DNA of 64,000 bases from contig OX442314.1 of the NCBI GenBank assembly GCA_949358305.1, positions 1,240,001-1,304,000 of the forward strand, read 5' to 3'. Position 1 is the first letter of the stretch; every line of letters starts with the position of its first letter. Positions 2,833-46,100 of the stretch are shown one piece after another. A program made the position numbers and the translations under genes. The notes beneath the pieces were generated by a model. It was not told where the DNA came from. It did no database searches and was given only the letters and a program-made list of their open reading frames with translations. The DNA comes from Strigamia acuminata (taxonomy: Eukaryota).

Positions 2833-5800
2833 TCATATGAAATATTCGAGGAGTGCAAATATTGAGAGACCGGTAAAAATTCCAATGATTGATCCCATTT
2901 GACAAAACAATTTGACAATGGAAACTTGTTTCTCTTCCGCAATTATCTCTCGAATGTTGCTGTCAATCGTGAATGTATTTCTGCTAAGGCGGTTTCTATT
3001 CATTTCCTGTTGTACTGACGATAGGAATATTGTTTGTTCACAGCGAGCTGGACAGTCACAGTCTTTGCGAGGATCTGTCTTGAATTGAGCCTCCAAATAC
3101 ATGTTAACAGTTTTTTCGGCCGTTTCAGTGGTCATGCACAAAGGTATCTTACTCGTTTCCATAAATGGCAATCTAATAGTAGGACAAACTGTGATTACCA
3201 GTCAAATTGTCTAATATGCAAACCAATGCATTGAAAACACACACTTGCACTTGAAAGGTTGTAGCTGTAGCTTCCCTGCAAAACATTGTTCTTCACATTT
3301 TGAAACTCGATCATTTGCTGCACAAGGGTTTTTCGGAGTGTTTATTTGAACCAACTAAAAAGAATAAACTTGCAAATACCGTAATGAATTTTTTAGTACA
3401 AACATTACCGTTTTACGAGAAATGAAAATTCGAACAAAACCCATACTGGGTGTGTAAACAATATATTTCGGGTGAAGATATTGGTTCTGTGGTAGAATGA
3501 AGTTCTAGAATGAATGCAATCCAAATAATCAACTGAATGAAATAAAAACATCGAAAGATCTCACTGGTTGGTTCACATTCCATTTGTAAATATTACCAAA
3601 GGAATACTGGTAGGTAAGAATTAAATGGTTCTTGTGCGGACAATAAGGCAGATCAACTGAAAACATTTAAAAGTGAGAAAACAATAATTTGTTTTGTATT
3701 TACCTCTACTTTTTTTAAATTCAGTGCAGTTTCCAAATACGGTTGACACAGCTGACACATTGCTGTAATGCACAACATCAAAAGATTTACCGTCTTTATG
3801 GAACATCTATAAAAATAGCTATTTGTTTAAAAATGTGAAATTGAGCAATGAATGCATTTAAAGAAAAATCAATCTTGTTACTTACTTGGAGTTCGGTATA
3901 ATGGCGTTCTAAATTAGAAGAGGCCTTCCATAATTCCAGAGAATTGTTTGCGAATTTCGACGATGAATGGAGTAAGTAATAAAGCTTGTAATGACGAACA
4001 TCATAGTGCAGTTGTTCACTTACATTTTCCTTGACTTTTACTATTTCTTCAGATTCTCGGCAATGTACAATCCGTGGAAACTGAATGATTTTGTCTCTAG
4101 CCAGAATAACTGATTTGATGATTGGATAATCAAAGTAATGATCAATTGAAGCATAAACTTGGTAAATCGATGTGAAAATCAGAAATAGTAGCACAATCTT
4201 TATCAGTTTGCTTCGCTTGTGCGTTTTCTTATTAATTTCTAGAATTGCTTGAATTTTTCCTTTTAACTCTGAATTTGATTTATTTTTTTTTCTGAACATT
4301 AAAAAAGGCATTTTGTAGCAGTGAACAAATATTTCGACGAGTGTCAAACAAGACATTCCGAAGTAGAGTCCAATGTTTCCGCCAATGTCGCACAGCAAAG
4401 AGATGATGTCGTAAGAAAATTGTTCTTGCAATGTACGAACGAAATTATTCAGAAGAGAAACATCGAGGATATTCTCAGAATAGGGTATTGCATCGAAGGA
4501 TGTGCTCAGTTCTGTCACATGGCATAAATAAGGACATTTGCACAGTTCTATTGCATCCTCATTATCATTTTTAATTGATTTCATCCACTTTTCACGTTGA
4601 CGCTTTAGTTCATTATTCTCGCATTCTGGTAGGCTTCTTGCATCGTAAAATAGAAACCTGAGATACAGTACATTTTATTCATGTTTCTTTAGAATGAATA
4701 GGTAGCTGATGCACAGCAAGCAATTAAAACAGTTAGGCTAAATAACTGAAGCAACATGGAGAAAAAAATTGAACTCTGGATTCTGGAAAGTGTGGTCAAC
4801 TGTTTTACTTCTTTCAATTATGATGTTTAATGCATCATAATGTAAAAGGAACTAAAGTTATCAAATGATTTAAGTATGATATAGTGAATCACAATGGTTG
4901 AACAAACTTAAAACAGTTAAACAGATGGGAAGTTTTTGTTCATTGTGGTGTTGTGTATCACAACTGTGAACACCATAACTGATTGAACAGATGGTCAATA
5001 TAAAGCTTTCAAAATATCCCTGAAACATCGTAGGTTTCACTTGTTTCTGGTCGTCAAAACAAAAACATTCATTTCAAAGCTAACTTGAACACTATTTTTA
5101 TGACTGCAATTATATTTTCATGTTTAGCTTGTTTAAGCATATACAAATTTACCTGCAAGTAACATTCTTCATGAAACAAGGGAGCAAACAGCCATGTAAA
5201 TTGTTATTGCAAGGATTTCTCTTCGTGCGGAGGAAGTGATACTGAAAGTAAAGTTGTTAAGTTTCAAATGAATTCCTTTGTGTGATATTTAATTTCAAGA
5301 AAATCTGGAACAGTATTTATATCTGTGTCCAAAAGGGTCCCATTAATTTGACGTGTGGTAGTATTGATTTGGGTGCAGAAACTGCGGCTGGCGTACCATT
5401 TTGCAACTACCCATCAACGTTTGCCCGTGTATCTGAAAAGACAGAAGAATTGGGCCAGGTGTCAAAAGGATACGCCCCCTTAATTTTACCAAATTAAAAT
5501 AAATAATTCGTGACTCTACAAGTACAAAACTTAGATTTAATTTTTTAAAATGTATGCTAGGGACCCCAAAAAGTTAAAATAAGATCCTGTGACGCATTTC
5601 AAATTCGGTGCACATGCATCTTACTTTTTCCAAATTAGTTGTAGCACTATGTCTAGTTGCTCTCAAATTTTCTCTATCTCTATGAATGGTTGCAATGTCT
5701 TTTGCATTCAGTAACAATTTCACTCCTTCAATAAAACCAGATGCATAATAGTAGACCGGTGAAGGATTTATTTTTACCTGAAAATTTTAAGAACAAGTCT

Positions 5801-6619
5801 AACAGTTATGGCACTACACAAATTTTGTAACTTCGGCAACATCATAAACATACATTAACCATTTTGCATTTTGCTGGGAATTTTAGTTTGATTACCATCT
5901 TGTAATCAGAATATCCATATGGGAGCTGCAATACTAATCAACAATAAAGGATTTAGAAATAAAAATCGTGAATGCCTTTTTTTTTTACGTACGACTTGAA
6001 ACTTGAGCAGTAGCTTGTACAAAACTATCGTAATTTTGAATTGTCAGATTAATGCGCAATTTTCCCTGAAATAGGATTGCTCATTTATTAAACTAAGAAC
6101 AAGAAATAGATAGAGCTTTACCATTTTGAAGTGTGCATCAGTTATGTAACTCGGTATACTCATGTATTTGAAAACATCAAGTAGATTATACTGGTATTTA
6201 AAATTATTTGCATCGGCATATCTTCTCTCGGCTATAGTCCTACCATCACAGCTTTCAAGATCTTTTTTTCTGCCACTCACTTTTACTCTAAAATTATTAA
6301 ATTCTTGAGTTGTGTATGGGAAAAAGTAAACATACGGGAAAATGCCATGCACTGTTTCAATGAAATCCGCATTGACTGTTGTCGGTTCATCCATGTAATA
6401 CAATATCCGATCTACAGTTTGGAAAATGCAAACTGCCAAATTGATAATAAGTAATGCGAAAAACAGATAATAATTAAATTTTTTCTTTTTTGAAATGTTT
6501 TTCAGAGATTTGGCAAATGGTGGTATCTCCGATTCTTCTTCTATGACAGTGACAACAATGTGTTGCAGTCTTCTCCTCCTTAGTTGTTGAATTCGGCCTA
6601 ATGGGTGAAACACACGCAT
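2833..6619 (-). CDS. DEG/ENaC-family channel gene A, two subunits fused in tandem (about 11 exons, roughly 800 aa, 4 predicted TM helices)
   Basis: Hand-spliced exons at approx. 6619-6122, 6065-5993, 5932-5859, 5777-5625, 5241-5153, 4657-3886, 3806-3704, 3656-3564, 3504-3409, 3354-3245 and 3172-2833 join in frame at GT-AG sites. Repeat 1: TM1 ...CIFQTVDRILYYMDEPTT, Cys-rich thumb, TM2 YDIISLLCDIGGNIGLYFGMSCLTLVE. Repeat 2: TM1 ...IYQVYASIDHYFDYPII..FPRIVHC, TVFGNCTEF, CDCPARCEQ, TM2 LFCQMGSIIGIFTGLSIFALLEYFI*. Confidence 0.88.
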
Positions 6620-27158: not shown

Positions 27159-27379
27159 CACACGAGCCAGACTATCTCCCTTTACAGTTAGGACTAACAT
27201 GTGACATATGGATAGCTTTAACGTTGCCATATTTTATTGCTTCTTTTGAAACCAAAACGACACGATCCTGATTTTATACCAATTATAACTGTTTAAAAGG
27301 CAAATGTAGAGAGACAACAATGACATTCCCAAACCTAATCCTACAATACTACCGACATCACTTAACAATTGAGACAATA

Positions 27380-27924
27380 GTGAGTTTGCGGTTGCCAATT
27401 GTTCCTTATAATTATGAGTTACAAGCTCATAATTATAAAATTGGACTTATAACATAACGTAACTCCTCAATTTTTACACTATTTTGTAAAATAAGGGAGC
27501 CAATCAGATCGCTTAACACTATTTTAAGCTCCTCCCACTATTGCAAATGGCGCTGATGGTGCTAATAGAAATTCAAAATGGCTGCCTGACCTGTTTCAAC
27601 AATCAGCCTCAATCACAATTTCTTTCTGCCATCGAAGGATAGAAACAACTAAAATCATTCCAGGTCAGCAAATAAATGAACTGGAAGCCAATTTCATGTC
27701 TGAAAACTGTCAAATTAGTAAAACTACAGATTTTCATTTTCTTTTGCATATGGATTTGTTCTACCATTACATGCAAGAGATTTGTACTGTTCACATGGTA
27801 TTTATAAGTATAATTTATAAAATATTTATTGTACCGCAAGTGCCTATTTCAAGAAGGAATTATAATTATAATTATGAGCTTGTAACTCATAATTATAAGG
27901 AACAATTGGCAACCGCAAACTCAC
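27380..27924. mobile_element. TA-targeting MITE inserted in the last coding exon of ENaC gene B
   Basis: ~59-bp TIR GTGAGTTTGCGGTTGCCAATTGTTCCTTATAATTATGAGTTACAAGCTCATAATTATAA; TA at 27378-27379 and 27925-27926; removing the element and one TA restores AYPILSQLLSDVG in frame. Confidence 0.9.
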
Positions 27925-29170
27925 TATTGGATATGCTTGTTGCTCTTCTACACTCTCCAACAAAGTATCAGGGAATTCAATAACTATTAATGTGAAATAA
28001 TTATCTAAGAATTTAGTTCCATGCAAAAAATATTTGTAAAAACTAATTTCACATGGTAGTTTACATTTGCATTGTTTCTGATTTGAGTCAAAATTCTTTA
28101 GGTACATTAAATGAGCAGAAGTGGATTCATTTGTTGTGTTACAAGCTGGCAGATCCAGTCTCCATAAATAAGGCAATCTGAAACAAAAGTAGAACTAGAA
28201 ATGTGAAATTTATGTACTACCATGTATAGTTTATTTGCTGAATAAGCTAGACATGTTCATACTATATATGTACTGTATGTTGCAAACACAATACAATTAG
28301 AATATCTAAACTTACACACCTGCAGGTAACATTTTGAACTAAATTGTTTCTCAGGCAAGCCTTTTTACACATGAAGTAAGCACTTTTGTTCTTTTCACAT
28401 GGATTATTCTTCGTACTTCTTCGAATAATCTATTTCATAAAATAAGGTTAGTAAGTGTCAGCATTTATGGAATTTGTTTAATTTTCTACTTTAGATTCCC
28501 TAAGTGTTACTTGGTTCCACCAATAATAGTTTAAAGCCGACGGTGCCAAAATATTAACATCTTCTTCCAGATTATTTAGAAAAACCTAAATATTTTTATA
28601 ATTCAAAAGTAGATGAATGATAAATTATTTGAAAACATCTGTATGGTTTAAATTGATTAACACTCCAAGCAATAAGCAATAAGCTAAATATACACAGCTT
28701 AATTCCGTGCTCAGAATAGAAGAAAGTTCAGGCCAATATAGTACACACGCTTTGGTAGCACATGCAAGGAAATTATTTGGCAAGCGGAACTATACAGTAT
28801 AGTCTATTATTTCAGGCAGTGACAGTACACAAAAAATGAATGAGTGAATAGAATTTTTTTTTAATTTTTATGTATTTGTAATTGCTGGAAATTTCGTACT
28901 TTGTTTGGGTTGATGTTCGAACGGTGAATGGCACAATGGTGGAAATGTGCAGATTTGTCATTCAAAATTAATTTTATTGTTTCCAATGGGGAACTTAACT
29001 TTTTCGACATTAGAGGAGCATTTGAACATACATATAGGATTTTTGTAGTAATTAGACATATTGTTTCTAATTCATATCTTATGTTTATGTCTGTGAACAT
29101 CTTATCATATACGGTTCGAAAGATGAAAGAAGTATTCTGTGCAAAAATTTAAAGAGTGGCATGCATAGTA

Positions 29171-29586
29171 TACTCTTTCCACACTCAAGAAGAGCCCTGG
29201 AATCTTGGCTCCGACTGGCCTAGTCTGATTACTCAGAACTGTAGTCGAAGTTCTACCACAAGGGAAAGTAGTTCCGTATGATTTTAATTCCTTTTTAGTA
29301 TAATAATGATTCAAATGATGTACTTTTAATGTTACTCTAGAATAAAAACTAATTTCCATTTTACAAATAAAGTTTTATGTTCTTTTTATTTTAAAATGCA
29401 TGTCTGTTAAGTTGATCGCTTGCTTTGTCAGGAAAGGAAATCGATTGCAATGTATGTACTTCTATTTATATCTGTTTTATGCAATTCTGGTGTTTTGGGT
29501 CTTTTTTTATGTATCACTACACAAGTGAAATGTCTCGGCCAATGGGAGCCAAGATTCCAGAGCTCCTCTTGAGTGTGGAAAGAGTA
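29171..29586. mobile_element. TA-flanked MITE (416 bp), family shared with 37264-37680
   Basis: TIR TACTCTTTCCACACTCAAGA.GAGC.CTGGAATCTTGGCTCC and its reverse complement; TA on both sides. Confidence 0.8.
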
Positions 29587-29923
29587 TAGTTACTATGCCG
29601 CTACATCCTGGCAGGAGTGGTGCTAGGAGTTGTTTTTGTCGTTTGTCGGTGTGTTTGCTATCAATATTGGACAGCGGTGAGAGAAGTAAGAAATGTGTCT
29701 GTGCAAATGGGGTTATGTTGTTGATACATTGTTGATTCTCAAGGTTGTTCAAGCGCCATCTCTTATCGGGAAATGTTTCCCAGCGTGGCATTGTGAGGTT
29801 TGCTTGTGAGCTTGTGATTAGGTTAAGGTTTGCCAATAATTGGAGTTGGCACCAGTCGCTATTTCCGTTGATGGTGCTGGTTTACATTTTCACCAATAAG
29901 GACTGTTCTCTTAGGACATAGCT

Positions 29924-30502
29924 TGTGACCGCTTGGCCACTCACTGTGACCTGCATCACTCCACACACGCCCAGTGGCCCCGAAGTCGTTTCCCTTCGCA
30001 GAGTGGACTGATCTAGTTAGGGAAGGAGAGAGCTGAGTGGTGTGGTGAGAGAGCAGAGAGGAAGGATGCACTGTAGAGAGAAAGAGAAGACGTATGCTGC
30101 GAAGGTCCCGACGCCAGCAAGGGTAACCGTGCTTGCAGCTGACTCTGATCTTCTCACCATTCACCACTGTTATGTTCAGTGACATGGTGTTGCGCCTGTT
30201 GCAGCCTCCATGAGTGGCTACATGGTTTCATACTGTACGTGGTAAGTACGATAGAATGTCTTTTAGTAATCGACCACGTCACCCATGGGACTCATGCCCT
30301 GCGTGTGACGGAACGGTTGCTGGAGTAGCGTGCAAAAAAGCACTGCCACACATGGGTAGATGGGAGACTCCAACTCCTGGACAACGATTAAAGATCAAAA
30401 CCCAACAATCTGGAGTCCCTGTCTCAATCATTTACATGAGTATGCGTCCCTCCCATGGAAGTCAATCCCCAGACAACCGTGGGTAAGACCATACAAGTCA
30501 CA
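29924..30502 (+). mobile_element. Solo LTR (579 bp), same family as 12748-13331
   Basis: TGTGAC...GTCACA ends; TSD AGCT/AGTT (one mismatch); colinear similarity to the 12748 copy. Confidence 0.8.
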
Positions 30503-30920
30503 AGTTCTACGTCAGAAGAGTTTTTATTACATGTTAAATAGTGTTATTTAGATGTACACCCGTGGAAATAAAAAACTTCCCTTGGTAACCGTGATTTTCC
30601 ATTTGCCCACCAGAGGCATGAAAAACTGTTGAGATTGGATGACATCACAGATCCCACATGGATCTGTTTTCATTCTGCTGTTCCCATTGGCTTAATTGAT
30701 TACAAACAATACAAATACAATATTAATAAGTAGAAATTTTTGTTATTATTATTATTTGTGTAATTTTAAAATATTGTTAATAAAAACTATTAATTTATAT
30801 TTCAATAACTGCTTTGATTTCATTTTCTTATTATAATTATTTTATCTGATTTTTGGAAGAATTTATGCAAATTAGATAAATAGAAAAAATAAAAACAGAT
30901 ACAAAATATTAGAAATCAAG

Positions 30921-33084
30921 ATGCCACGTCTTACAAAACAACAAAAGGATAGGCTAACTGGACTTTATGATGCAGGGGTATTGTTTAAATTGTCAAACCA
31001 ACTTATTAATTTATTATTAAAACATCATTATTAAAAAAAATAACCAACAAGCAAAAATTTCAAAAATTCTATTCCTATACCGGTAGTATTGAAAAAAAAC
31101 ATTTTTAAACAAACAAGAATATTAAATTAATATCTTTTTAAATTTATAGTATTTTAAATTTAATATTTTAAATTTAGTATTTTGAAATTTGTAGTATTTT
31201 AAAATTTAATATTTTAAATTTAGTATTTTGAAATTTGTAGTATTTTAAAATTTATAGTGTTTTACTAGTTATAGTATTTTGAAATTATAGTGTTTTGAAT
31301 TTTATAGTGTTTTAAAATTTATAATGTTTTAAAATTTATAGTATTTTCAATTTTATTGCATTTTTAATTTCATAATATTTTTAATTTTATAATATTTTTA
31401 ATTTTATTTGCTATTTTAAAAACCCCAACATAAAAATTATCAAAAAAATGATTAAAAGACAAATAAACTACAAAAAATTGATAAAAAGACAAATAAACTA
31501 CAAAAAATTGATAAACTACAAAAAATTGATAAACTACAAAAAATTGCTAAAAAGACAAATAAACTACAAAAAATTGCTAAAAAGACAAATAAACTACAAA
31601 AAATTGCTAAAAAGACAAATAAACTACAAAAAATTGATAAAAAGACAAATAAACAACAAAAAATTGATAAACTACAAAAAATTGCTAAAAAGACAAATAA
31701 ACTACAAAAAATTGCTAAAAAGACAAATAAACAACAAAAAATTGATAAACTACAAAAAATTGATAAAAAGACAAATAAACTACAAAAAATTGCTAAAAAG
31801 ACAAATAAACTACAAAAAATTGCTAAAAAGACAAATAAACTACAAAAAATTGATAAAAAGACAAATAAACTACAAAAAATTGATAAAAAGATAAATAAAG
31901 TGTAATAAATTATTTAAAAGACAAATCAACCATGAAACAATCAAAAATGTATGAAAAACAAAAGAAATTTCTTTAACAATAAAAACATTTTCTTACAGAT
32001 GTCGGTGTCAGATATTGCTGAACAGCTAGGATGCAGTGATAAAACCGTTAGAAAGTGGGCACAACAATGGCGACAAGATCACAATGTGGATCGCCGAGTT
32101 GGGAGTGGGAGGCCAAGGAAAACAGATGAGCAGCAGGATGAAGCCATAGTCACCCACTCCCTGGCCAATCCATTTGATGGGTCACAGGCCATTAAGGCAC
32201 ACCTCCAGCTGGCTGTGACTTCAAGAACCATCCGCAACCGCCTGCGAGAGCACGGTTTGCATGGGCGAGTTGCTGCGCAGAGAGATTTGCTCACTGCTAA
32301 CCATCGGGCTCTGAGGGTTCAATTTTGTGAGCATAATCTGCTCCGAAATTGGAACAACGTTGTTTTTTCTGATGAGTCCCGAGTTAGTGTTGGTGGAAGT
32401 GGGCAAGTCTACGTGCGCAGGCCAACTGGCGATAGGTTTGATCCAGCCTTCGTCATGCCAAAGGTGAAATTTTCTCAAATCATGAAATATTCGAATAAAT
32501 AATTAATTTTAAATCTACTTAACATTTAATTCCAGAAAAGCAGTGGTCGGTTTGGGGTGAATGTGTGGGCCTGGCTGTCTCAAGGCGGACTTGGGCAGAT
32601 TTCCCGGCTAACTGGATTTTTGAATTCAGTTATGTATGTTGATACACTTGGCCGGGACTTACTGCCCAGTGCTGAAAGAAGATTTGGTGTCCAGCCTTGG
32701 GTCTTTCAGCACGACCGCGCACCGCCACACACAGCCCGAAACACCCAACAGTGGATGGCCCAACACATGGGACCAAACATTGAAATTTTGGAGTGGCCAG
32801 CGAGAGGTGCGGATTTGAACCCCATTGAGAACATCTGGGCAATTTTGAAGTCCAACCTGCAGAAGAAAGTAAATTAGCTGCAAATATAAATAAATTCTTG
32901 ATTTTTTTAATTCATTAAATTATTTCAGCCAATGGCAACAAATGCAGACGAATTGTGGGGTCAAATCCAAGACGTATGGCAACAGCTTGCCCTGGATGCA
33001 CAACTCGTGCCCAATTTGATATCATCAATGCCAAGGCGTGTTCAGGAAGTGGTTAACAACAATGGACATTGGATCCACTACTGA
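30921..33084 (+). CDS. Tc1-family transposase, DD37E triad, 4 exons (30921-30977, 31999-32463, 32536-32868, 32929-33084), 336 aa
   Basis: Three phase-0 GT-AG introns; motifs MPRLTKQQK, HTH (IAEQLGCSDKTVRKW), GRPRKT, VVFSDESR, FQHDRAPPH, WPARGADLNPIENIW, SMPRR..GHWIHY*; 37 residues counted between the second D and the E. Confidence 0.9.
31140..31894. repeat. AT-rich ~19-bp repeats and a 30-bp minisatellite (AAAAGACAAATAAACTACAAAAAATTGCTA) inside transposase intron 1
   Basis: Visible tandem arrays; they explain spurious ORF 31448..31894. Confidence 0.9.
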
Positions 33085-33876
33085 AAGCAGAACCATGTCA
33101 CCATTATTATCATCATTATTATTATTATTTTAAATTAACTTGTTTTTTTTATTTATTATTCAATTAGTTGTAATTCTTTGCAATTTGTTTTTTATTTTAA
33201 TTTGTTTTTGATTTTTGACAGTAGTAACTAATTAAATATAAATTTAATTTCCATGCAATAAACAAAAATACCTCTTATTGTGAAAGAATGTTTTATTTTC
33301 ATACCAACTTCTTGTAGGTGCTATAAAATATTTCAAACATTAATGTTTTATTCTGCAAATGATTATGACCACATTGATGAAAATACCTTATATGATATCA
33401 GTCATTTTTAGATTGCACGTGTGATTCTGGCAGCCTTCTATGTAAGCGCGCTCTACAAAAAAAATTAGATTTAAAGATGTGCAAAGATCCAAGCAAGGAA
33501 GGCAGCATCGCAGCAGAGCCCAGTTTGAACTGCCTAGCTGCGCACACAACAGACTGAAAGAACAACTCAAACCGCTATGTTTAAAAGAACCCACTAAAAT
33601 GGTGAATTTATTTTTAACGAGAACTAAGCAAAACTACGTAGAAAAAGAAGAAGACATCTTAGGACTAACATCCAACAGTCGCAACAACAAAAAACCTAGC
33701 AACAACAAACAATCAGGACGACCGATTCAGTTAAAAGATAACAGCTAACTTACTCATGAAAAAACGAATTGGTTCTAGTGATAAATTAAAGCATTAAAGC
33801 TAGCAAAAAATACATAGCCGTAACAGAAATAAATACAAACAGCACAAATGCATATCAAATAAATTTGCACTGATCA

Positions 33877-34407
<531 letters not shown>

Positions 34408-36527
34408 GTAACAAAATCGTTATTTTTTTGTTACATTAAAACCATCAAATACATTCACCCGACTTTAAAAACAAAAACAAACCAGGCCGCTCTTCGCACG
34501 TGATATGCGTTTAGACCAGATAAATAATAAAAATCGCGACGTCTGTTGATTTGAAACGTAAAAAGAGCGACGCTGGATGCATTCGTCGTTTTCGTTTTTC
34601 TCCACTTGACGTGGCCACTCTCGGCTTCCGACGCTTCGTGTTTTACACCGACATTTGATGGATTTTGCGGCGTCCACATCATTCCTTTGCTCTGGATCCA
34701 ACCGCTGTTCGGATTACCCGTTCCGCCGGTCTGGTGCACCAATTCCAGCACAAATTGACCGTCTGTCGTGTAAATAAATGCGAAAAATAATTAAAATGAT
34801 TAAAACGATCAAAAATCGTCAATTTTTTACGATTTTACTCAATTATTGCCTAAATAAAAACTTAGATTACCGTTCTTGTTGTTCTCGGTATGATTCGTGC
34901 ATGTTTCGTGATGTTTCGTGTTGATTTGCGTCGATAAACAACGTCGGAGCGTTGAATTTCCGTTCGTGCACGAGTTTTTTGAGAAATTCGTGCGCAGTTG
35001 CGGTTGCTGGCACTCGTTGGGGTCCGTGGAACGTTGAGCACATCCAGAACTGTTTATGGATGAATCAGAGTGAATTCGAAGGTGAAAACCGAAGTGAACA
35101 AAGCAGGTCGGCCATTTTGAGATCAGGTTTAGTTCTGTGATGTCATACAAACTCTGTGAATTTTCATGCCTCTGGTGGGAAAATTTACAACTGCCGTTAC
35201 CAAGGGAAGTTTTTTATTTCCACGGGTGTACCTTTAGATGCTGGTCACATAGTTTTGAAGGAAATAGATTTTCAAATGTAATGTAAAGGTAAGCGTTTAA
35301 GTCTTTTGATTGTTCTGAAAAACATTGGAAGGGTATGAATTAATTTTAAGATGCATCAGCCAGACAGGATTTTTACTGGAAATATTATCCCAACCAAAAA
35401 ATTAAATTATTACAAAAAAGTGAGTTTTGTGAGAATAATCAAATAATGTATCGGAAAAGTAATACTCCGTAATATAATTAAACATCTTGTAATCTCGGTC
35501 GTTTTAAGTGTACTTTTTTTTTTAGCCCTCCTGAAGCTTGGTTCAGACTTGTGTATAGGCTGCGGATACATAGCTCAAAAATAGGTCAATTCTGCAATAA
35601 CATGATGTAGGGATTCACTCCAGTTTGGTTATGATAGGAATTAAGTCATAATTGCTCATATTTTCTTTCAGCATGACTCATTATGTGTTATATGATTATT
35701 TAGTTCAATTTACTATTGGGCATCTTGCAAGTTATGCTAGATGCCATGTCAGTTTTTACAATATAAGATCTTATGTATAGATAGTTTACTGTGTTTAGCA
35801 CAGTCGTTTGCGCAATTGCCAACAGGTGGCAATAACTGTATTATTGCTTTCTTGTTCTGCCACTAGAGTGGCTATTGTGCACTCTTCCTTTGTTTTGTCT
35901 AGCAGCAAGATGGCTGCCTCCATGCTAAGATGGATTACATGTAAAGTATTGTTTGTTTTTAGTTATAATTAAAGTTGGTTTATTTTCTAGATAAGTTTGA
36001 CGGTTATTACTCTACTTTACTCTTGTATACATTGAATTTGTGCAATATAGAGCGCAAATTAATGCACTAGGAGCAAGGTGTAAATTCATTCATGCATGAG
36101 AAATTTTAATGAGTAAACATTTTTATCGTGCATTTTCACACTTTGACATCAAATGAACAAAAAGACATCATGTTTGAGCATCTGCCACTGCAATTTTTTT
36201 CCGCTTATCCCAACAACACCTACATTGCGAATTGTTGGAGCCATATTTGATGGTGAAAGACAATAATGTCTTGACAATGATGACATGAGCTGTGATTTGC
36301 TGCTGGAAAAATTGCAAAAAAAAATCCTGCAGAATAATATAAAATATTCCTATTTTCAAAATCTGCAGAAAATCCGCAGAAAATCCTTATTTTAACAGGA
36401 AGTAACGTCATTTTGAGCATTTTTAGTATCCGTAGAGATGGATTTACAGTTTGGGAATCATTCTGGTGGCTTTATTTGAGGCCCGTAATTGCCACACATC
36501 TTTTTTGCACCAGACTTGATTTATGAC

Positions 36528-37061
36528 TAGACCCCGGATACATATGCAAAATAAATTTCGTTATATGCGCATATAATATGCACCAAAAATTCCAATAAAT
36601 GCAAAAAAAAAATAAAATATGCAAAATAAAAAAATTTATTCGAGTGAAATGAGGTGTTAAATAACAACTTAATGCCATTTCAAAGTGTTCTTGGTGTAAA
36701 TGAACGAAAATTAGTAATTACAATTCATTTTTTTCTATTTTTTTATTTGTTTATTTGTTTATATCTTAAAACTTTTTCCAGACACTAATTTAGTGACTTC
36801 CCCTGGTGTCTGTTTTTGGCGAAATTTACAGTTTTCCGAACGTAAGCATACGTACATGATACGTGTCTTAAAAAAAGCAAAAAATTGATACGTACGTGTT
36901 ACGTATCGTTAAAAAGAGATACAAATCGCCGTTTTTTCCCGGAAAAATGGCAATATATGCATTTATTTTCCGATTTTCGGAAAATATGCAATTTAAGCCA
37001 ATTTCGGCTATATATGCAATATACATATGAAGTATGCATTTATGCATTTATCCGGGGTCAA
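36528..37061. mobile_element. hAT-type MITE
   Basis: TIR TAGACCCCGGATA / TATCCGGGGTCAA; 8-bp TSD TTTATGAC (36520-36527, 37062-37069); subterminal ATATGCA repeats. Confidence 0.85.
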
Positions 37062-37263
37062 TTTATGACCCTCTGACAGTGCTAAAGTGTGAACTAGTAG
37101 AAATTAAATTTCTAATTTACCTGTGTTTATCCGTGAACAATTGCCGAAAGGAAGAGGAATAGGATGCTTTGATATGTTTAGCGCTATTTTATATCCGTAC
37201 CATTTCTACAAAAAAAAATTTATTGTAATTTCTTTTTGGATGATATAAAACAAAAGAGTACTA

Positions 37264-37680
37264 CACTCTTGTTCGACTCAAAAGGGTGGCCTTCTCCCAT
37301 TGGCCGAGCCGCATTACTCCTAACTACAGCCTGTATTACTACCACTAGGAGAAGTAGTTTTATTTTTATTATGTTTTGTGATTGCTATTACCATTTAAGT
37401 TGATATAATTTTAATTGTATTTTTTCTAAAATGTTATTTCCATTTAGAAAATAAAGTTTTATGCACAAATAAATGTAAAACTCGTGTTTGTTCTGTTTAT
37501 TGGTTGCTTTGTCTGGAAAGCACAATATTTTGAAATTTGGGCCATTACCTAGGCAATCGATTACAATGTCTGTACATTGTAATGCATTTTTGGTGTTTGA
37601 GTCTATATTTTTGGATCACTACACCAGTGATACGGCTCGGCCAATGAGAGAAGGCCACCCTTTTGAGTCGAACAAGAGTA
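37264..37680. mobile_element. TA-flanked MITE (417 bp), related to 29171-29586
   Basis: TIR (C/T)ACTCTTGTTCGACTCAAAAGGGTGGCCTTCTC.CATTGGCCGAGCCG; TA on both sides; sits 7 bp inside an intron of gene B. Confidence 0.82.
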
Positions 37681-38750
37681 TAAAATACCTCATTTTCAAT
37701 ATCAATGGTATCATGAACATTGAGTGTTTCCCAAATTTCTTCCAGTGACAAATTGTTATTGAACATTTGCCAGGGTGATATTTCATTGCAAGTTTTGTTG
37801 GTGTGTTTCAGTAAGTATGATCTGACGGCATCCATAGCATTACTTTGCTTTTCACCACAAACTGTGACTGACCGATATTCGGTGTAGCGACGTTGAGCTA
37901 TTCTAACAATTGTTGTTACCGGTTCATCAATGTAGTAGTTGATACGAATTTGCAAGCAGTATAAAGTGAATCCCGCAATGACAAATACGAGCACAAACTT
38001 AAACCTTTCTAAGACTCCATTTGTTATAGGTTTACCTTTGCTTGCAATGACTTTCTTCTTGCATATCTCGTACAGAGGGCAAATCTTATCGATGGATGAT
38101 ATTTCTTGGTGAATGTTCGTTGCAACATAGTATAAATACACAATGATTTCAGGTATTGAAATTAATGCTAGGCCGAAAAACAAGCCAAGATTGCCTCCTA
38201 AATCTGACAGAAGAGCAATTGCGTCGTAGGTGTATCGTTCTTCATACACACTTATTTTGTCATTAGTAATTGCTAGAGATACAGATACAGATTTGGTATC
38301 ATCTGCTATGCCTATTTCAGTGGAAGGTGTAAAGGTTATTTGGTGACATGGACGTCGACAGAGACAAACTGTAATGGGATTTGTGGTTTGAATCAACTGC
38401 ATTGCAGCAACTAGATGCGTGTTTATGTTTTTCGAACATTTGCAAAGTGGTAAATCGATCTTCATAAAGGGAAATCTTTAATGGAAGATTTGTAATTATT
38501 ATTTTTTGATGTAGAACTACATCTTTCTCACAAAGCGAGCTGCAACAATTGGACTGGAGCAACATGGGAAATGGAAATGACGTAGGGAAGGGAAATGTTG
38601 TAGGTATGGAACGGAAATGTCGTTGGGAATGGCAACTGAAACAAAAAGAACAAACGAACAAAGTGATACAACATGTGCAGCCACCCTGTCTGCTGACGGC
38701 ACAATACAATGTGAAACAATGTACACGTCTAAGAACTCAAAGTATAAGTA

Positions 38751-39355: not shown

Positions 39356-40982
39356 AATCAATGCTCACAGCAGATACAAACAGCAACAAAACCAAAAACC
39401 ACACTCACAACTTCCACAACCTCCTTCCTTCTTTTCACTCTGAATGTAGTTGTACGTTTGGCACATTGGAGACTGTCCCTTTGCAATTTGTTTGATTTCT
39501 TACCTGCATGTTAGCTTCTTCTTAAATTTTTTCAATAGACAACTCCGATAGCATTCTCTGTATTCGTCTTGACTTGAGCATTCATTTATCGGCGAATTCA
39601 AAAAAATGAACTAAAATTTATGAATAAAATAAGGTGATGCATAGTAATTTTTGGTCTTGAATAAAATTTTACTTTGTTATATCTCAAATAAACTTTTGTT
39701 GTTCCACCAGGATATTGTTTTCCCACGCCGAGGAATTTCCCAAAATCATAGAAATGGAGACTTAACTAAGGGCAAAGAAGAGAAATGTAGACAGTAAACA
39801 TTATTGCAATTTATTTAAATTACATAGTACGGCGCTGCATGGCATATGTAATCATATCTCTGTTCTATTTTGACTGTTACTACTTGTCCAACCAATGATT
39901 TGCTAGATGCTTTAGCTACGTGTCCATAAATAATAAAGTGAATTGAAGTTGATAGTGGTAAATGTCTGATTATACTTACGAAATTGAATTGATGAGCATA
40001 TTCCTACATCAATGACTTCTGTCAGAACAAATGTTTTGTTCGAATTAGAATGTACCTGTACAAAATAAAAGGATTTAAATTATTTTTTTTAACTCATTGA
40101 CAATTACTTTATTGAATCGTTTTACTTTTATTTTCACGCTCACTACTTCTTTCGTCAAATTACTCGCTTTCCAAATTTCCTCTAGATTGTAAGTTGGGAT
40201 TTCCATCAGTGTGGTTACCATGTTAGGGCAGTCGGAAGGTGGATCTTGGGATTTTGCGTATGTTTTATTCCAAAGTCTGGCCATTTCTTTCGTATAGCTA
40301 CTACATATCATCAAATTTGGTAGGACGACCTCTTCAGATCTACTCGTTACATCAACAGCCGTAGGATAACTTAAGTAATGCATTATCCTATCATAAGTCT
40401 GATAAGTTAGCATGCACATGCAAAATGAGAATAACACTAGCCAAAAGGTGTGACGCTTTGTCCTCAGTTTTCTACTGTTTAAGAAATCATCCAAACCAAT
40501 TACGTTGCATCGAAGTTTGTTTGCATCATCTGTCAACAATCGGTGAATTGCAGGACGTAGTTGTCTTAATCTTTGCCTGTTCCCTCTCAGTAGAGTGTTA
40601 TTCTGCATTCTATTTTACTTCCTATAAACAGATTTCAAACTTGTGAATTGGAAACAACTTGTAATTATTGGATATTGTGCAGTGTTGCCTGCGTTTGGTG
40701 CTGTTAAGAAGGAAAGTTAATAGGTGTCTATCCTTGCTCGCTTCAGAATCGACTGTTCTTTGTTTGGATACCTACTGTAATAAATTCTTATTTGCCCAAT
40801 TGAATTTGTGGTTGCCACGTATCATAGAATAAATAATGAACATGTTTGTTTTTCATTTGTATTCTTTGCTTACCAACTTGTCTAGATATTTTGGATGTTT
40901 CATGACAGTTGTTTATATGTTTGAGTTCATGATAAACATACTATTTACTTCCACTGCTGTGCGTTTCTTCAATATGTTGTCA

Positions 40983-41252
40983 TTTTTATGTCAATTTGTC
41001 TTTTTCATGTTATTTTTATGTCAATTTGTCTTTTTCATGTTATTTTTATGTCAATTTGTCTTTTTCATGTTATTTTTATGTCAATTTGTCTTTTTCAAGT
41101 TATTTTTTATGTCAATTTGTCTTTTTCATGCTATTTTTATGTCAATTTGTCTTTTTTATGTTATTTTTATGTCAATTTGTCTTTTTCATGTTATTTTTAT
41201 GTCAATTTGTCTTTTTCATGTTATTTTTATGTCAATTTGTCTTTTTCGTGTC
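40983..41252. repeat. 30-bp minisatellite (TTTTTATGTCAATTTGTCTTTTTCATGTTA), ~9 copies
   Basis: Visible tandem array; explains ORFs 40836-41467. Confidence 0.92.
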
Positions 41253-43115
41253 ATTTTTGTGTTTATCATGTCATTTTCTGTCGTTTGTTCTCATTTTCCG
41301 AGAACCAATTATTTTGTATGTTTTTGTTCTCATTTCCGAGAACCAATTATCTTATGTATATAACTTCGTTTTTGACACGAATAAATTTAGTACATCATTT
41401 CACCTTACACCAGAGGAGAGCTGTTCTTGTTGAGCAGCTAGAAACTTATTTGTATTCACACAACTGAACCCTGAAAGGAACTTAGAACATTTTCGAAACC
41501 TGAACTTTTATTTTGACACGCAAAAAGGAGAACTTTTGACATTTACAACTTGGGATTTTCACATAAAGTGAATTGGAGACATCGGTTTTATGAAAACATG
41601 AACATTTTATTGGGTCTTGGGTGTCAATATTGTAAAAACTGGCGTTTTACTCCAGGTTAACATTCCCTTTAATGTGTCATTTATTTGTTGTTTTTGTATT
41701 TTAATTCCATAACATTTTATTCTGGGTTCACATTCCCTTTAATGTGCCAATTTTGTTGTTATTTCGTATTTCTCTTACTGATAACTTTACATTTAACATT
41801 TGTGTATTTTTTATTCGTTTTGATGTAATATTTCAGTGCCATTTATTTGATTTCTATATTTCATAATTCAATGGTGTTACATTTAACCCTTTTATATGTA
41901 TTTTAAATTCAATAATGTTTACATTTAATAATTTGAGTTTTATCAAGTTTTATTACAATTTGTCATTAACCGGTTGTTTATGATGGTTAAACCGCGTTTG
42001 AAAAGCGCGCCGGTTACGATACAAGGAGAGCCTGGTCCCGAATAAGGGCCCGGGCAACGATTAGCAGCCTGGAGGGTGGCGGCAAGCTAATCCCCTTACT
42101 CGATCATATTCACAAATTTTACCGGGTTTGTTGGAATCGTAAAAATAGAAGAAGATGATGCACACGCGCGGACTTAACAACGCTAGCGTGGCTTATGCTA
42201 ATCTGGCAGGGACCCCTAATGGCGGAGCGGCCAGACCGAGCAAGCGCGCACTAATCGCGCGCAAAAGACAAAATAACAACTCATTAGCTACGTGAATCAA
42301 ATTCTTAGTCCTTTGGCCCGTATCAGCGGCATAAACGTAATGATAACAAAAGATCAACAAAAGGAAGGAAATTCAAAGGTGAGACGCGGAATTAAACACG
42401 CAATATGATATTGCAAACACTCAAACACGCAGAGTTAACTTGCATGGAGTTATACTGTGAATTAACACAGGAGGAAGTTGCCAAATGCACAACGGCTAAT
42501 TAAAGCTCTTACAATATGTGAAAATCGGATGATTTTACGTGTGAATTGTTATTTGGATTTCTTTAATATTGTTTAAACTCATAATTGTGTTGATTGAATT
42601 GTATTGTTGATTTGTATTTCCATTTTTTACTTGTGATTTTATTTGATTTGTGTATGTTATATTTTCGTATCATAATATGTTTTATTTCCATTTAAATGTT
42701 TTAACTTGATCTCTTACAATTGGAATGTTAATTCGTTAATCCTTTTAAGAATGTTCTATTCCTCTGAAATTGTAAGCGCTCGCCATTGGTCCTTTGAGCG
42801 CGTCATTTACATACCTCCACCTCGTGATTGCTTGTGATTGGTTCTTCGAACTCGTCATTTACATCACCTGTTTCCTTTATAACTTGAATAAAATTAGTGT
42901 ACTTTTTCAACTAAAACTGTGTGGTTGTGCTCCTTTATACTCCAACGCCATCTTGGACTTCAACGCGATTTTCAACTGTTACATCCACTTGTAGTCAAGG
43001 ACTTTAGAAATTGATTGGTAAACTTTGAATATCTTTTTATTTACTTCAAGTTTAACATTGGTGCCGAAACCCGGGAACATTTTAAATTCCGAATTTATCT
43101 AACAAATCTACTAAA

Positions 43116-46100
43116 ATGGTGAGAAATTTCGAGTTAAAGAACAAAGCATTCCGAGCGGCCATGATGGTCACAGAAACACTCCTGACCACGATCACCACTG
43201 CGCTGAATGGGAGAGCTGCAATTCCGCAAGCCACAATTGAATTATGGCTGCAACAGCTCGAACAAAAGCAGAAGCGAGTGCAACTAACGTTTGACGCCAC
43301 ACTGGACCAAGCAAGAAGCGACCAGGAGATTGACGACACTGTGCTAGCACTCGACGCACTGGAGGACCGCTTGGCCGCATCAAAAGCCGACTTAGGCAGG
43401 TACACTCAAATGAATTACCCACCTAATTTACCCCAGAACATACGACCGAACGCGGACGCGCAACCGGCGGACATCGACGCACTAGCGGCGGCTATTACCG
43501 CAGCAGTGACGGCAGCAACACCACGCACAACACCGACGAACGGTCAACCATTCATCAAACGTAAGCCACTCGAAATACCTAAGTTTGACGGACGTAAGCC
43601 AGAAGAATGGGGAGGGTTTTGGAAGACGTTTTCGATCCAAGTCGGCGACAACGATCAACTGGACGGAACGAATAAGCTTTTATATTTAAGAAATTACCTG
43701 GTTGGAGAGGCGCTCGACGATATAAAAGCACTCGAGATCACCGCAGGAAATTACACCGTCGCAATCGCACGTCTGCAGAAGAAATACGGCGACAAAATCG
43801 TACTCGAGAATAAATACTTGTCTAACCTCATAAATTTGCCATCTGTTAGCAGCGAGCGAGATCGAATAGGTTTACAGAAGCTGCACAGACACGTGGAAGT
43901 CAACATAGAGAATCTAGCCAACATCGAAGTACCACTGGCGGAAATACAGCGGACCATTTTTCCCGTGCTGTCGTCTGCAGTTCCACGTAGTATCATCATG
44001 GAATATGACAAAGACTGCGATGGAGAGCGATCGATAACGAGGTTAATGGATTGGTTGAGTGATCACATTGCTAAACACGCCAAGTACGACATGCTAAAAA
44101 CTCAGTCGAAGCCAGATGCGACCAACAACAAAACGTCGGGAGGGGACAGCAATTACACCAACAAGGGGCGATTCAACCGAAAGGAGAAGGAGCCTCGATC
44201 TGGATCAGCGTCACAATTGTCAGTATTAATAATGAAGTGTCAATTTTGTGATTTAGCAGAACATAACCGGAAAAGATGCCCGCTCACGATGGAGGAGAGA
44301 CGTAAAAAGCTGCAGAAAAAAGGAATTTGCATGAGATGCTTGGGGAAAGTGCCCCACAAGACTGAAGAATGCAGGACTCGCATGAAATGTTACAGCTGTG
44401 AGGGAGCGCATCACACCCACGTGTGCGACACACCAAAAGCTACAGAAGCCGGCGAGGGAATCACCCACACCAACGCAGTCGTTACCACCTGTCCACCCAA
44501 GTCCGAATTTTTGATGGTGCAGATGGTGAAGATGGCCGGACCAACGCACTCAGCTTTGGGAGTGTGCTATATCGATGGGGGAGCCCAACGTACCTTCATA
44601 CGCTCTGAGTTGACTAAAAAACTGAATTTGAGAATTTTAGGCACTGAAACGATAAATTTGGCCGTGTTTGGGCAAGAGCCCAGATCAGAAGTTCGCAACA
44701 GAGTCGAGTTAGTCCTCAGCCCCGCCAACTCGAAGTCGCCAGCAGTCACAATTGAAGCCATCGAAGCTGACCACGTCACGTCCACTCCTGGAGAACAACC
44801 GAACAAACAACTCAAAGCGGAACTACAACGAAGAAAAATCGAAGTGGCCTGCAAGCAAGTTGCGTTGCATTCGAAGGAAGTGGACCTGCTAATTGGAGTG
44901 GACCATTACTGGCGAGTGATGACTGGACAAACAGAATTTTTGGAAGAAAACTTAATTGCAGTAAAAACGAAATTTGGTTGGACATTACACGGACAGACTA
45001 CAAACGGAACGAGAGTCATTGCTGCACCGGTGAGAATTAACAAAATAACACTTACCCCATCAACAGATGATCTTTTGCGCCGGATGTGGGAGCTGGAACC
45101 GATCGGAGTCCGCCACGAGTCGGTCGAAACGAACGACGACGCTGAGACGTTGGAAAAGTTCGAAAAGGCAATCAAGTGGACGGGATCGAATTATTCAGTG
45201 GAGCTGCCGTGGATTGTGAATAGCAACGAGCTGGACGACAACTATCGAGGCGCCGAGCAACGTATCATGTCACTAATCCGTCGTTTCAGAAAACAACCCA
45301 ACCTGTATTTGGAATACAAAAAAGTCATCGACGAACAACTGAAAACAGGCATTGTTGAAGAAATTCCGAATCAAACGGCAACAGGACCCATTTACTACAT
45401 GCCACACAGCCCAGTCATCAAGGAAGAACGCGTAACCACGAAATTGAGAGTGGTATTTGATGCATCTTCACATCGAAAGGGACATCTCTCCTTGAACGAC
45501 TGCTTGTCGAAAGGTATCAATTTTTTGCCGTCATTAATATTTGTGCTGTTGGGATTTCGTCTCGGAAGAGTGGCCATCGTGGGAGACATCAAAAAGGCGT
45601 TTCACATGATCGAAATCGCCTTGAAGGACCGCGACGCAACAAGATTCTTCTGGATTGATGAACACTGGGACGGTGTAGGAAAAGCACTGTTGAAAATACT
45701 GCGACAGACTCGAGTATTGTTTGGCGCTACACCAAGCCCATTTTTGTTGAGCGCGACCATTCGACACCATCTGCGCAAGTTCGAGAAACAATACCCCGAA
45801 ACTGTGAAGTTACTGCTGCGATATCTATACGTGGACGACTTCATCTCTTCGCTCAAAAACGACGCTGAAGCACTGGTAACATTCCGACAATCTAATCTGA
45901 TTTTTGTAGCAGCCGGCATGGAACTCGCCAAGTGGCAAACCAATTCACCAGAACTAAGAGCCAAATTTCGCGAGGAAAATCCCACTGACTCACAGTTGAT
46001 GTCGGATGAAGAAACCAAAGTGTTGGGAGTCAAGTGGAACCCAAACTCGGACGAATTGGGCCTGGCGGTTGAGGAAAATTGCCCGCCTTGCAGGAAAACA

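What the first reader, a model, noticed from the sequence alone, without database searches (positions are those of the whole stretch)
37688..38475. A highly diverged paralog (gene B) has the same TM2-linker-TM1 fusion, so this is a gene family
Seen: exon 38475-37688 reads YDAIALLSDLGGNLGLFFGLALISIPEII...PITNGVLERFKFVLVFVIAGFTLYCLQIRINYYIDEPVTT...YRSVTVC with no stop, and the exon layout mirrors gene A although the proteins are only distantly similar. Inference: the fusion predates the A/B split and was maintained long enough for deep divergence, which argues for function rather than chance read-through.
Basis: partly seen in the sequence, partly recalled or inferred. Interest (0 to 1): 0.8.

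Follow-up and report, generated by a model that had tools for sequence, protein, structure and literature searches.

The report
Tandem two-repeat DEG/ENaC channel gene
An intact gene here encodes two complete DEG/ENaC (amiloride-sensitive sodium channel) subunits joined head-to-tail in one protein, as do a neighbouring paralogue and many Strigamia maritima gene models, and this would likely hard-wire two of the three positions of a normally trimeric channel.

Summary
The minus-strand exon 38475-37689 is open throughout. It runs from the end of one DEG/ENaC repeat (Cys-rich part and TM2) through a 39-residue linker into TM1 and the start of a second repeat.

My splice model makes gene B an 11-exon, 815-codon ORF (40608-27234) with GT-AG introns and no stops. 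Gene A (6619-2833) is a 9-exon, 748-codon ORF with the same layout.

Of 23 Strigamia maritima models that I looked up, 21 carry the same TM2-linker-TM1 junction. B-like ones are 53-55% identical across the whole exon, and the linker keeps its length (16-17 of 39 residues identical).

A domain tree puts A1 with B1 (97/95) and A2 with B2 (96/90). AU tests reject A1+A2 (p 0.0013) and B1+B2 (p 0.0012).

How the protein assembles is inferred only. Most likely it fills two neighbouring positions of a trimeric pore.

Caveats: I have no RNA evidence. A 555-bp inverted-repeat element sits in B2's last coding exon.

I found no paper describing natural multi-repeat DEG/ENaC subunits. Verdict: a new variant of a known kind.

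The parts
37689..38475 (-). Gene B exon 5, the fused exon. It encodes the end of repeat 1's extracellular domain, TM2, the linker, TM1 of repeat 2 and the start of repeat 2's extracellular domain.
   Evidence: Open frame; splice sites; Pfam ASC; 53-55% identity to Strigamia P0001 and P0003 over 259-263 residues.
38127..38228 (-). TM2 of repeat B1 (YDAIALLSDLGGNLGLFFGLALISIPEIIVYLYY).
   Evidence: Hydropathy peak; Pfam profile positions up to 455; 26 of 34 residues identical to P0001.
38010..38126 (-). 39-residue linker, predicted to be cytoplasmic. It contains no Met and no stop.
   Evidence: 16 of 39 residues identical to P0001 and 17 of 39 to P0003, with one single-residue indel.
37929..38009 (-). 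TM1 of repeat B2 (ERFKFVLVFVIAGFTLYCLQIRINYYI).
   Evidence: Hydropathy peak; TM1-block HMM E 5e-17.
40126..40608 (-). Gene B exon 1: ATG, N-terminus, TM1 of repeat B1.
   Evidence: Pfam ASC profile 5-76, E 9.6e-10; 50% identity to P0001; model.
39504..40003 (-). Gene B exons 2-4 (40003-39824, 39765-39673, 39610-39504): the middle of B1's extracellular domain and its Cys-rich exon. The exon 2 acceptor is the least certain boundary in the model.
   Evidence: Colinear with Strigamia P0001 and P0003.
28320..37205 (-). Gene B exons 6-9 (37205-37121, 35314-35232, 28585-28490, 28429-28320): the extracellular domain of repeat B2.
   Evidence: tblastn with P0001 and P0005; splice sites.
27234..28177 (-). 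Gene B's last coding exon (LPYLWR ... TM2 of B2 ... WFQKKQ, stop). It is interrupted by the inverted-repeat element and is modelled as exons 10 (28177-27925) and 11 (27404-27234).
   Evidence: 57% identity to P0005 over 49 residues.
27375..27929 (.). 555-bp element with perfect 64-nt terminal inverted repeats, inserted just before TM2 of B2.
   Evidence: arms 100% complementary; single copy in the window. Removing 27376-27928 keeps the frame.
3886..4636 (-). Gene A's fused exon (TM2 of A1, 32-residue gap between blocks, TM1 of A2).
   Evidence: 44-46% identity to Strigamia P0020 and P0027.
2833..6619 (-). Gene A, 9 exons, 748 codons: 6619-6122, 5898-5854, 5777-5625, 5241-5153, 4636-3886, 3806-3642, 3504-3409, 3354-3245, 3172-2833.
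   Evidence: All introns are GT-AG. The exon 6 donor (gtccgc) is weak.

Best explanation
Gene B is an intact, conserved gene for a tandem two-repeat DEG/ENaC subunit (TM1-ectodomain-TM2, a 39-residue linker, TM1-ectodomain-TM2). It descends from one ancient duplication-and-fusion shared with gene A and with Strigamia maritima, and its two repeats are predicted to sit side by side as two of the three pore-forming units of a DEG/ENaC-type channel.

Shown directly: the open fused exon, the complete spliced ORFs, the conservation across species, and the repeat phylogeny.

Inferred: the topology. With four membrane passes, the N-terminus, the linker and the C-terminus would all be cytoplasmic.

Also inferred: that both repeats line a pore. 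I infer further that the third position is filled by another subunit, either a single-repeat DEG/ENaC or a repeat from a second tandem chain. The fusion would then fix the ratio and the neighbour order of two non-equivalent repeats.
For: 1. Open exon and Pfam ASC matches on both sides of the junction.

2. Full models without stops and with GT-AG introns: B is 815 codons in 11 exons; A is 748 codons in 9 exons.

3. Conservation of the B exon against Strigamia P0001: pre-TM2 43/83, TM2 26/34, linker 16/39 with one indel, TM1 14/27, post-TM1 43/80. B's second-repeat exons are 33-57% identical to P0005.

4. There is no Met between TM2 of B1 and TM1 of B2, so B2 cannot start on its own upstream of its TM1.

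5. Family size. 31 of 143 representative hits carry a TM2-block followed by a TM1-block. 21 of the 23 Strigamia-named models do, with gaps of 26-60 residues and a median of 41.

6. Phylogeny and AU tests.

7. The same phase-2 intron lies before the 'LP' exon in all four repeats. A2 and B2 also share 96-nt and 110-nt exons.

8. Pore hallmarks. The G-x-S motif reads A1 GMS, A2 GLS, B2 GMS. The following Glu is present in A1, A2 and B1 (read from the sequence).

9. The first repeats keep D-x-GGN-x-G, while the second repeats have D-x-G-(S/N/G). The two repeats have therefore stayed distinct.

10. An AlphaFold2 model of the Strigamia two-repeat paralogue P0011 has pLDDT 69.6 and pTM 0.64. It shows four long helices, two beta-rich domains, and a low-confidence stretch at 396-422 between them. 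Its best fold matches are the centipede channels BRTNaC1 (8ymr, TM-score 0.69) and PDPNaC1 (9jf7, 0.73).
Against: - No RNA evidence. No RNA run holds the exon, and the two runs I laid are genomic DNA.
- A 555-bp element with perfect inverted repeats interrupts B2's last coding exon just before TM2. In this haplotype, B2 either carries an 11-residue insertion (if the GT/AG pair inside the arms is used) or is broken.
- B1 has G-L-A where its Strigamia relatives have G-x-S. B2 lacks the Glu after the filter.
- No repeat has a canonical His-Gly motif before TM1 (B1 'IG', B2 'NG').
- Two splice sites in my models are weak: the B exon 2 acceptor and the A exon 6 donor.
- The Strigamia proteins are automated models, and several are plainly mis-joined (P0001 has a duplicated N-terminus; P0066 and P0096).
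- Two repeats do not divide evenly into a trimer, and nothing here shows how assembly happens.
- The groups for the AU tests included Strigamia partners that I chose after seeing the quick tree.
Confidence: 0.62

Rival explanations
1. Same gene, different assembly. Three tandem chains would build two linked trimeric pores, for example one of first repeats and one of second repeats, or mixed. The alternative I favour is one chain plus a third subunit forming a single pore.
For: The arithmetic works: 3 x 2 = 2 x 3. The linker between blocks is 26-60 residues long, enough to reach a neighbouring assembly. The first and second repeats form separate, conserved clades, as would be expected if each had its own homotypic partners.
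Against: Nothing was measured here. Both centipede DEG/ENaC channels with solved structures are simple homotrimers (PMC12714832 abstract and passages; PDB titles). Strigamia P0009 (two repeats plus the start of a third) and decapod three-repeat proteins fit better with repeats of one chain sharing one pore.
Confidence: 0.2
2. The fused frame is made but does not act as one protein. The linker would be cleaved, or alternative transcripts would give two ordinary single-repeat subunits, so the fusion is only a way of co-expressing them.
For: The linker is basic and the least conserved segment (16 of 39 identical). It has low confidence in the P0011 model (residues 396-422 below pLDDT 50). The A and Strigamia linkers do contain Met codons.
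Against: B's linker has no Met. There is no stop after TM2 in A, in B or in 21 Strigamia models. Linker length is conserved between species, 39 against 38 residues. No splice donor or acceptor is needed inside the exon.
Confidence: 0.1
3. Gene B, or at least its second repeat, is a decaying pseudogene, and the open junction is left over from a chance read-through.
For: The inverted-repeat insertion in the last coding exon. B1 has GLA instead of G-x-S. No expression data exist.
Against: 815 codons over 11 exons without a stop. 46-50% identity to Strigamia B-like models along both repeats. The insertion has 100% identical arms, so it is very recent. The same architecture is found in gene A and in 21 Strigamia models.
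Confidence: 0.06
4. A and B became two-repeat genes independently, by two separate fusions of neighbouring single-repeat genes.
For: DEG/ENaC genes often lie in tandem. A separate Strigamia clade (P0006, P0007, P0009, P0018) has near-identical repeats within one model, and P0010's two repeats group together. Repeat turnover or further fusions therefore do occur.
Against: A1+B1 and A2+B2 clades (97/95 and 96/90). AU tests reject A1+A2 (p 0.0013) and B1+B2 (p 0.0012). Intron phases and exon sizes are shared.
Confidence: 0.02

Closest known systems
[quoted passage not shown]
   Same: They are the closest solved relatives by sequence: E 1.4e-9 and 2.7e-8 to residues 1-115 of the exon. They are also the closest by fold to the Strigamia paralogue model, with TM-scores 0.69-0.73. 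They share the compact ectodomain. PDPNaC1 likewise lacks a canonical HG motif (PMC12714832, passages read).
   Different: Both are single-repeat proteins of 431 and 421 residues with two TM helices (PMC9974506, PMC12714832, passages read); PDPNaC1 is reported to form a homotrimer and the BRTNaC1 entries list three chains each. The window's genes join two diverged repeats in one chain of 748-815 residues.
Strigamia maritima uncharacterised proteins (UniProt T1JEH2, T1JGJ4, T1IYF0, T1JD34, T1ITL7, T1IPM9, T1IVW1 and others)
   Same: They belong to the same family and have the same TM2-linker-TM1 junction. B-like models are 46-55% identical and A-like models 43-46%.
   Different: They are automated, unnamed and partly mis-joined models. 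No description of their architecture turned up in my searches.
Engineered ASIC and ENaC concatemers (recalled from memory; no paper read here)
   Same: Head-to-tail joining of subunits through a cytoplasmic linker from TM2 to the next TM1, used in the laboratory to fix subunit order and ratio.
   Different: Those are artificial constructs. This would be a natural, old and conserved one, with two repeats rather than three.
Two-pore-domain K+ channels and two-pore channels (recalled analogy)
   Same: Tandem duplication of a pore-forming unit within one chain.
   Different: In those families the repeat number divides the channel's symmetry (2 x 2 = 4). Here two repeats face a three-fold channel. 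The protein family is unrelated.
Decapod proteins of about 1000-1290 residues with three TM1/TM2 pairs (Penaeus vannamei XP_069977668, Cherax XP_053632225, Halocaridina KAK7013173 and KAK7028032)
   Same: Several DEG/ENaC repeats in one predicted chain.
   Different: They have three repeats, the middle one short in some. They lie in a different part of the domain tree from the centipede family, so they probably arose separately.

Membership tests
DEG/ENaC (Pfam PF00858, ASC) | Profile match above the curated cut-off | tested here: met
   B fused exon 53.4 bits, B exon 1 38.5 bits, A fused exon 51.4 bits and A last exon 35.0 bits, against a cut-off of 23.6. A exon 1 (17.7 bits) and the B2 TM2 piece (20.5 bits) fall below the cut-off on their own.
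DEG/ENaC (Pfam PF00858, ASC) | Two transmembrane helices flanking a Cys-rich extracellular domain, in each repeat | tested here: met
   My TM1-block and TM2-block HMMs find the order N-C-N-C in both models. There are four N blocks in the window and a complete C block for each of the four repeats. Hydropathy peaks agree, except that B1's TM1 falls below my threshold of 1.6.
DEG/ENaC (Pfam PF00858, ASC) | G/S-x-S selectivity motif in TM2 (feature recalled; also discussed in PMC12714832) | tested here: inconclusive
   A1 GMS, A2 GLS and B2 GMS meet it. B1 reads GLA, whereas Strigamia B-like models read GQS or GLS.
DEG/ENaC (Pfam PF00858, ASC) | His-Gly motif before TM1 (feature recalled; PMC12714832 cites Yoder and Gouaux 2020) | tested here: not met
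   B1 'NVIGLDDF', B2 'ITNGVLERF', and no candidate in A1 or A2. The homotrimeric centipede channel PDPNaC1 also lacks a canonical HG motif (PMC12714832), so this does not exclude membership.
DEG/ENaC (Pfam PF00858, ASC) | ASIC-like fold | tested here: met
   Tested on the Strigamia paralogue P0011, not on the window's own protein. Foldseek gives E 6.8e-18 to 8ymr_A, TM-scores 0.69-0.73 to BRTNaC1 and PDPNaC1, and 0.50-0.56 to ASIC1 chains.
DEG/ENaC (Pfam PF00858, ASC) | Assembly as a trimer around one pore | not testable with these tools
   No stoichiometry can be derived here.
Centipede tandem two-repeat DEG/ENaC family (defined here) | TM2 of one repeat and TM1 of the next in one open frame, 26-60 residues apart | tested here: met
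   B 39 residues, A 32, and 21 of 23 Strigamia models 26-60. In the window the junction lies within a single exon.
Centipede tandem two-repeat DEG/ENaC family (defined here) | First repeats and second repeats form separate clades | tested here: met

The most novel reading that the evidence does not exclude
Centipedes, and independently decapod crustaceans, have natural DEG/ENaC concatemers. In the two-repeat form seen here, gene fusion fixes the order and ratio of two non-equivalent pore units. In the three-repeat forms (Strigamia P0009/P0006; decapod proteins with three TM pairs), one polypeptide would form a whole pseudo-trimeric channel. That would be the trimeric-channel counterpart of the route from single-domain to multi-domain cation channels.
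Probability: 0.3. Interest if true: 0.85.

Novelty: new variant of a known kind. Interest (0 to 1): 0.7.

Why it matters
DEG/ENaC channels (ASICs, ENaC, degenerins, pickpockets) are textbook trimers of separate two-helix subunits. Subunit order and ratio in heteromers are usually studied with artificial concatemers.

A natural, old, conserved two-repeat subunit raises a concrete question: how do two fused repeats fit a three-fold pore? It also supplies ready-made material to answer that question, namely two genes here and about twenty models in Strigamia.

It matters for annotation too. Such genes look like wrongly merged neighbours and are likely to be split by curators, or ignored in counts of chemosensory and mechanosensory gene families in myriapods.

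Tried and rejected
- Whole-genome search: no genome is held for this window, so no genome-wide count was possible.
- RNA evidence: no RNA holder is listed for the exon. The second showed that X1 and X2 are genomic DNA contigs crossing exon-intron borders, so they say nothing about expression.
- Complex prediction on the two repeats of P0011 (residues 36-395 and 415-791): no verdict, score 0.09. This is not evidence either way. It was preceded by queue refusals.
- The search for homologous proteins with lengths 'near': nothing found, although P0003 (350 residues) exists. This is a limit of the word index.
- The search of earlier findings: nothing on this genome or sequence.
- VIA-align fold search: the machine was busy three times, so I do not know which repeat of the P0011 model matches the solved chains.
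- ESM Atlas: a family-level match only.
- Literature search was swamped by 'tandem ASCT' papers and told me nothing. Vizueta et al. 2020, cited in PMC8438182 for PPK candidates in Strigamia, is not in the library and I did not see it. Supplements of the Strigamia genome paper were not opened.
- A megablast of the inverted-repeat element against E. coli genomes found nothing and was not informative.
- One script call gave no answer and I repeated it.
- Rejected model: B exon 5 beginning at 38459 in phase 0, my first model.

Full report
**What is at the coordinates**

On the minus strand a frame stays open from 38477 to 37545, 310 codons.

The exon is bounded by an acceptor ...ttaaag|A, giving an exon start at 38475 in phase 2. 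The donor is GAG|gtattt, giving an exon end at 37689.

Pfam's ASC family (PF00858) matches the translation at 53.4 bits against a cut-off of 23.6, in two stretches. The better stretch covers profile positions 335-455, the Cys-rich end of the ectodomain and TM2. HMMs that I built for the TM1 block and the TM2 block place a TM2 block at 38136-38474 (E 2.5e-33). A TM1 block follows at 37851-38009 (E 5e-17).

Between them lie 39 residues with no stop and no Met.

**The genes**

I built the models using Strigamia proteins as guides and canonical splice sites.

Gene B can be read as 11 exons from an ATG at 40608 to a TAA ending at 27234. That is 815 codons, every intron GT-AG, no internal stop.

Gene A, 20 kb downstream on the same strand, reads as 9 exons from 6619 to 2833, 748 codons.

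The weakest points in the models are the acceptor of B exon 2 (gatgtag|GAA at 40003) and the donor of A exon 6 (gtccgc).

Both models have the block order TM1, TM2, TM1, TM2. The window holds exactly four TM1 blocks, all on the minus strand.

- In all four repeats a phase-2 intron separates a Cys-rich exon ending ...C from an exon beginning (R/K)-x-P.
- A2 and B2 share exons of 96 and 110 nt.
- A and B are colinear at 22% identity over 781 columns, E 2.7e-33.
- The two fused exons align end to end at 25-26% identity.

**Relatives**

The B exon finds Strigamia maritima T1JEH2 (P0001) at 54% identity over 99% of the query. The A exon finds T1IP81 (P0002).

A full HMMER scan of 1.84 billion representatives gave 143 hits. 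By my block HMMs, 31 of these 143 have a TM2 block followed by a TM1 block in the same protein.

I looked up the names of 30 representatives, and two more were named. Of these, 23 are Strigamia models, and 21 of the 23 carry the junction. The gaps are 26-60 residues, median 41.

Four Strigamia models are complete two-repeat proteins of 791-907 residues (P0007, P0010, P0011, P0017). One unnamed 1154-bp ENA contig encodes the junction in a single 241-residue frame (P0019).

All best matches are to this one centipede, at 43-55% identity. I therefore infer that the window comes from a myriapod, probably a centipede other than S. maritima. No call names the organism.

**Signs of constraint**

Against P0001 the exon is identical at 43 of 83 pre-TM2 positions and 26 of 34 TM2 positions. 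It is identical at 16 of 39 linker positions (one single-residue indel), 14 of 27 TM1 positions and 43 of 80 post-TM1 positions. P0003 gives 17 of 39 in the linker. The linker is thus the least conserved part, but it keeps its length and a recognisable sequence.

The exons of the second repeat are conserved too: 33-57% identity to P0005 in the later exons, and 46.6% over 356 columns overall.

I could not compute dN/dS because no Strigamia DNA was available to me.

**One fusion or several**

I cut 91 repeats (TM1 block to TM2 block, 250-520 residues) from the hits and the two models. I left out seven near-identical cluster members and the second version of B.

The quick tree of all 91 repeats already grouped A1 with B1 and A2 with B2.

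For a careful tree I kept 44 rows. These were the 39-row clade holding the centipede family, minus the long-branch row P0071, plus six neighbouring rows as outgroup. The other 46 rows were dropped.

In the careful tree:
- The first repeats of A and B fall in a clade of 10 rows (97/95).
- The second repeats fall in a clade of 8 rows (96/90).
- The two clades are sisters (92/86).

The two 'single-repeat' rows inside these clades, P0096 and P0066, turned out to be mis-joined two-repeat models.

Holding A1, A2 and their nearest Strigamia partners together is rejected (lnL difference 41.1, p-AU 0.0013). The same holds for B (30.9, p-AU 0.0012). The partners were chosen after I had seen the quick tree, which weakens the p-values somewhat.

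There are exceptions. P0010's two repeats group together. A separate, fully supported Strigamia clade (P0006, P0007, P0009, P0018 and three single-repeat rows) mixes first, middle and last repeats. Repeat replacement or further fusions have therefore also happened.

**What it most likely does**

Each repeat keeps channel hallmarks. The TM2 motif D-x-G-G/S-x-x-G is present in all four. The G-x-S filter reads GMS, GLS and GMS, with GLA in B1. The following Glu is present in three of the four repeats (read).

The first repeats share GGN-x-G, while the second repeats have G-(S/N/G). The two have therefore stayed different for a long time.

An AlphaFold2 model of P0011, built from 22 aligned Strigamia sequences, has pLDDT 69.6 and pTM 0.64. 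It shows helices at 38-71, 359-396, 401-452 and 755-790, two beta-rich domains between them, and low confidence at 396-422. Foldseek's best matches are the centipede channels BRTNaC1 and PDPNaC1, with TM-scores 0.69-0.73 normalised to the target. These are also the closest solved sequences.

From this I infer a four-pass protein with a cytoplasmic linker. Its two ectodomains and two TM2 helices would take two neighbouring places in a DEG/ENaC-type pore.

Who supplies the third place is open. Three chains forming two linked pores is also possible. I favour the single-pore reading for one reason: Strigamia P0009 continues into a third repeat, and decapod proteins carry three TM pairs. Both suggest that the repeats of one chain belong together.

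**What speaks against function**

No RNA data were available.

Just before TM2 of B2 lies a 555-bp element, 27375-27929, with perfect 64-nt inverted ends. It is single-copy in the window.
- Removing 27376-27928 restores ...VEEQQAYP|SQLLSDVGS..., with spacing like that of other second repeats.
- A GT at 27924 and an AG at 27405, inside the arms, would splice the element out, leaving 11 extra residues.

The perfect arms mean the insertion is recent, so it does not bear on the age of the fusion. It may mean that this copy of B has just been damaged.

**Comparison with what is known**

The two characterised centipede DEG/ENaCs are single-repeat proteins of 431 and 421 residues (PMC9974506 and PMC12714832, passages read).

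The main text of the Strigamia genome paper does not mention ENaC, pickpocket, degenerin or amiloride (PMC4244043). PMC8438182 only notes that PPK candidates exist in Strigamia. Papers on Tetranychus and decapod chemoreceptors do not mention fused repeats.

Seven full-text searches gave no paper on natural multi-repeat DEG/ENaC subunits. The library lacks many subscription papers, among them Vizueta et al. 2020.

**Verdict**

I rate it a new variant of a known kind.

Noticed in passing
window 27375-27929: 555-bp element with perfect 64-nt terminal inverted repeats, each arm itself partly palindromic. It is inserted in the last coding exon of gene B. A GT/AG pair inside the arms could make it behave as a new intron, leaving 11 extra residues.
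   Followed up: partly
window 2391-2669 (-), 50631-50960 (+), 51428-51505 (+), 53557-53727 (+): Extra copies of gene A's last exon (the TM2 block). The minus-strand copy just downstream of gene A is degenerate (G to D and G to S in TM2, start missing). The copy at 50631-50960 is an intact frame, 62-71% identical. DNA similarity is confined to the exon, and no TM1 block lies on the plus strand.
   Followed up: partly
proteins P0009 and P0006 (Strigamia T1IZL2, T1IU28): P0009 has two full repeats plus the start of a third. P0006 begins with the end of one repeat followed by two full repeats, and overlaps P0009 almost identically. Together they suggest a three-repeat gene.
   Followed up: partly
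proteins P0035/P0144 (Penaeus vannamei XP_069977668), P0126, P0138 (Cherax XP_053632225), P0054 and P0067 (Halocaridina), P0074 (Portunus): Decapod DEG/ENaC proteins of about 970-1290 residues with three TM1/TM2 pairs; the middle repeat is short in some. Members of the P0035 cluster sit on 3.4-4.0 kb contigs carrying a 3-kb frame, which looks like transcripts.
   Followed up: partly
protein P0048 (Polypedilum vanderplanki KAG5672929): A 1460-residue model with three closely related pickpocket-like repeats joined by very short linkers. It may be a merged gene model.
   Followed up: no
window 37193-37716: The intron after the fused exon holds a very high-copy repeat (contig depth up to hundreds of thousands in the DNA runs). 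An inverted copy lies at 37247-37318.
   Followed up: no
window 31385-31913 and 40833-41467; 31936-33084 (+); 43086-46652 (+); 11185-12141 (+): Two long tandem-repeat tracts, a Tc1/mariner-like transposase frame inside gene B's large intron, a 1188-codon retrotransposon gag-pol frame upstream of gene B, and a C2H2 zinc-finger frame between genes A and B. The family names are my reading of the translations; they were not tested.
   Followed up: no
window 37908, 38368, 40387, 40393: Differences seen in the DNA-run contigs within gene B's coding exons: two synonymous and two conservative (I to M, V to A). The number is too small to weigh.
   Followed up: partly
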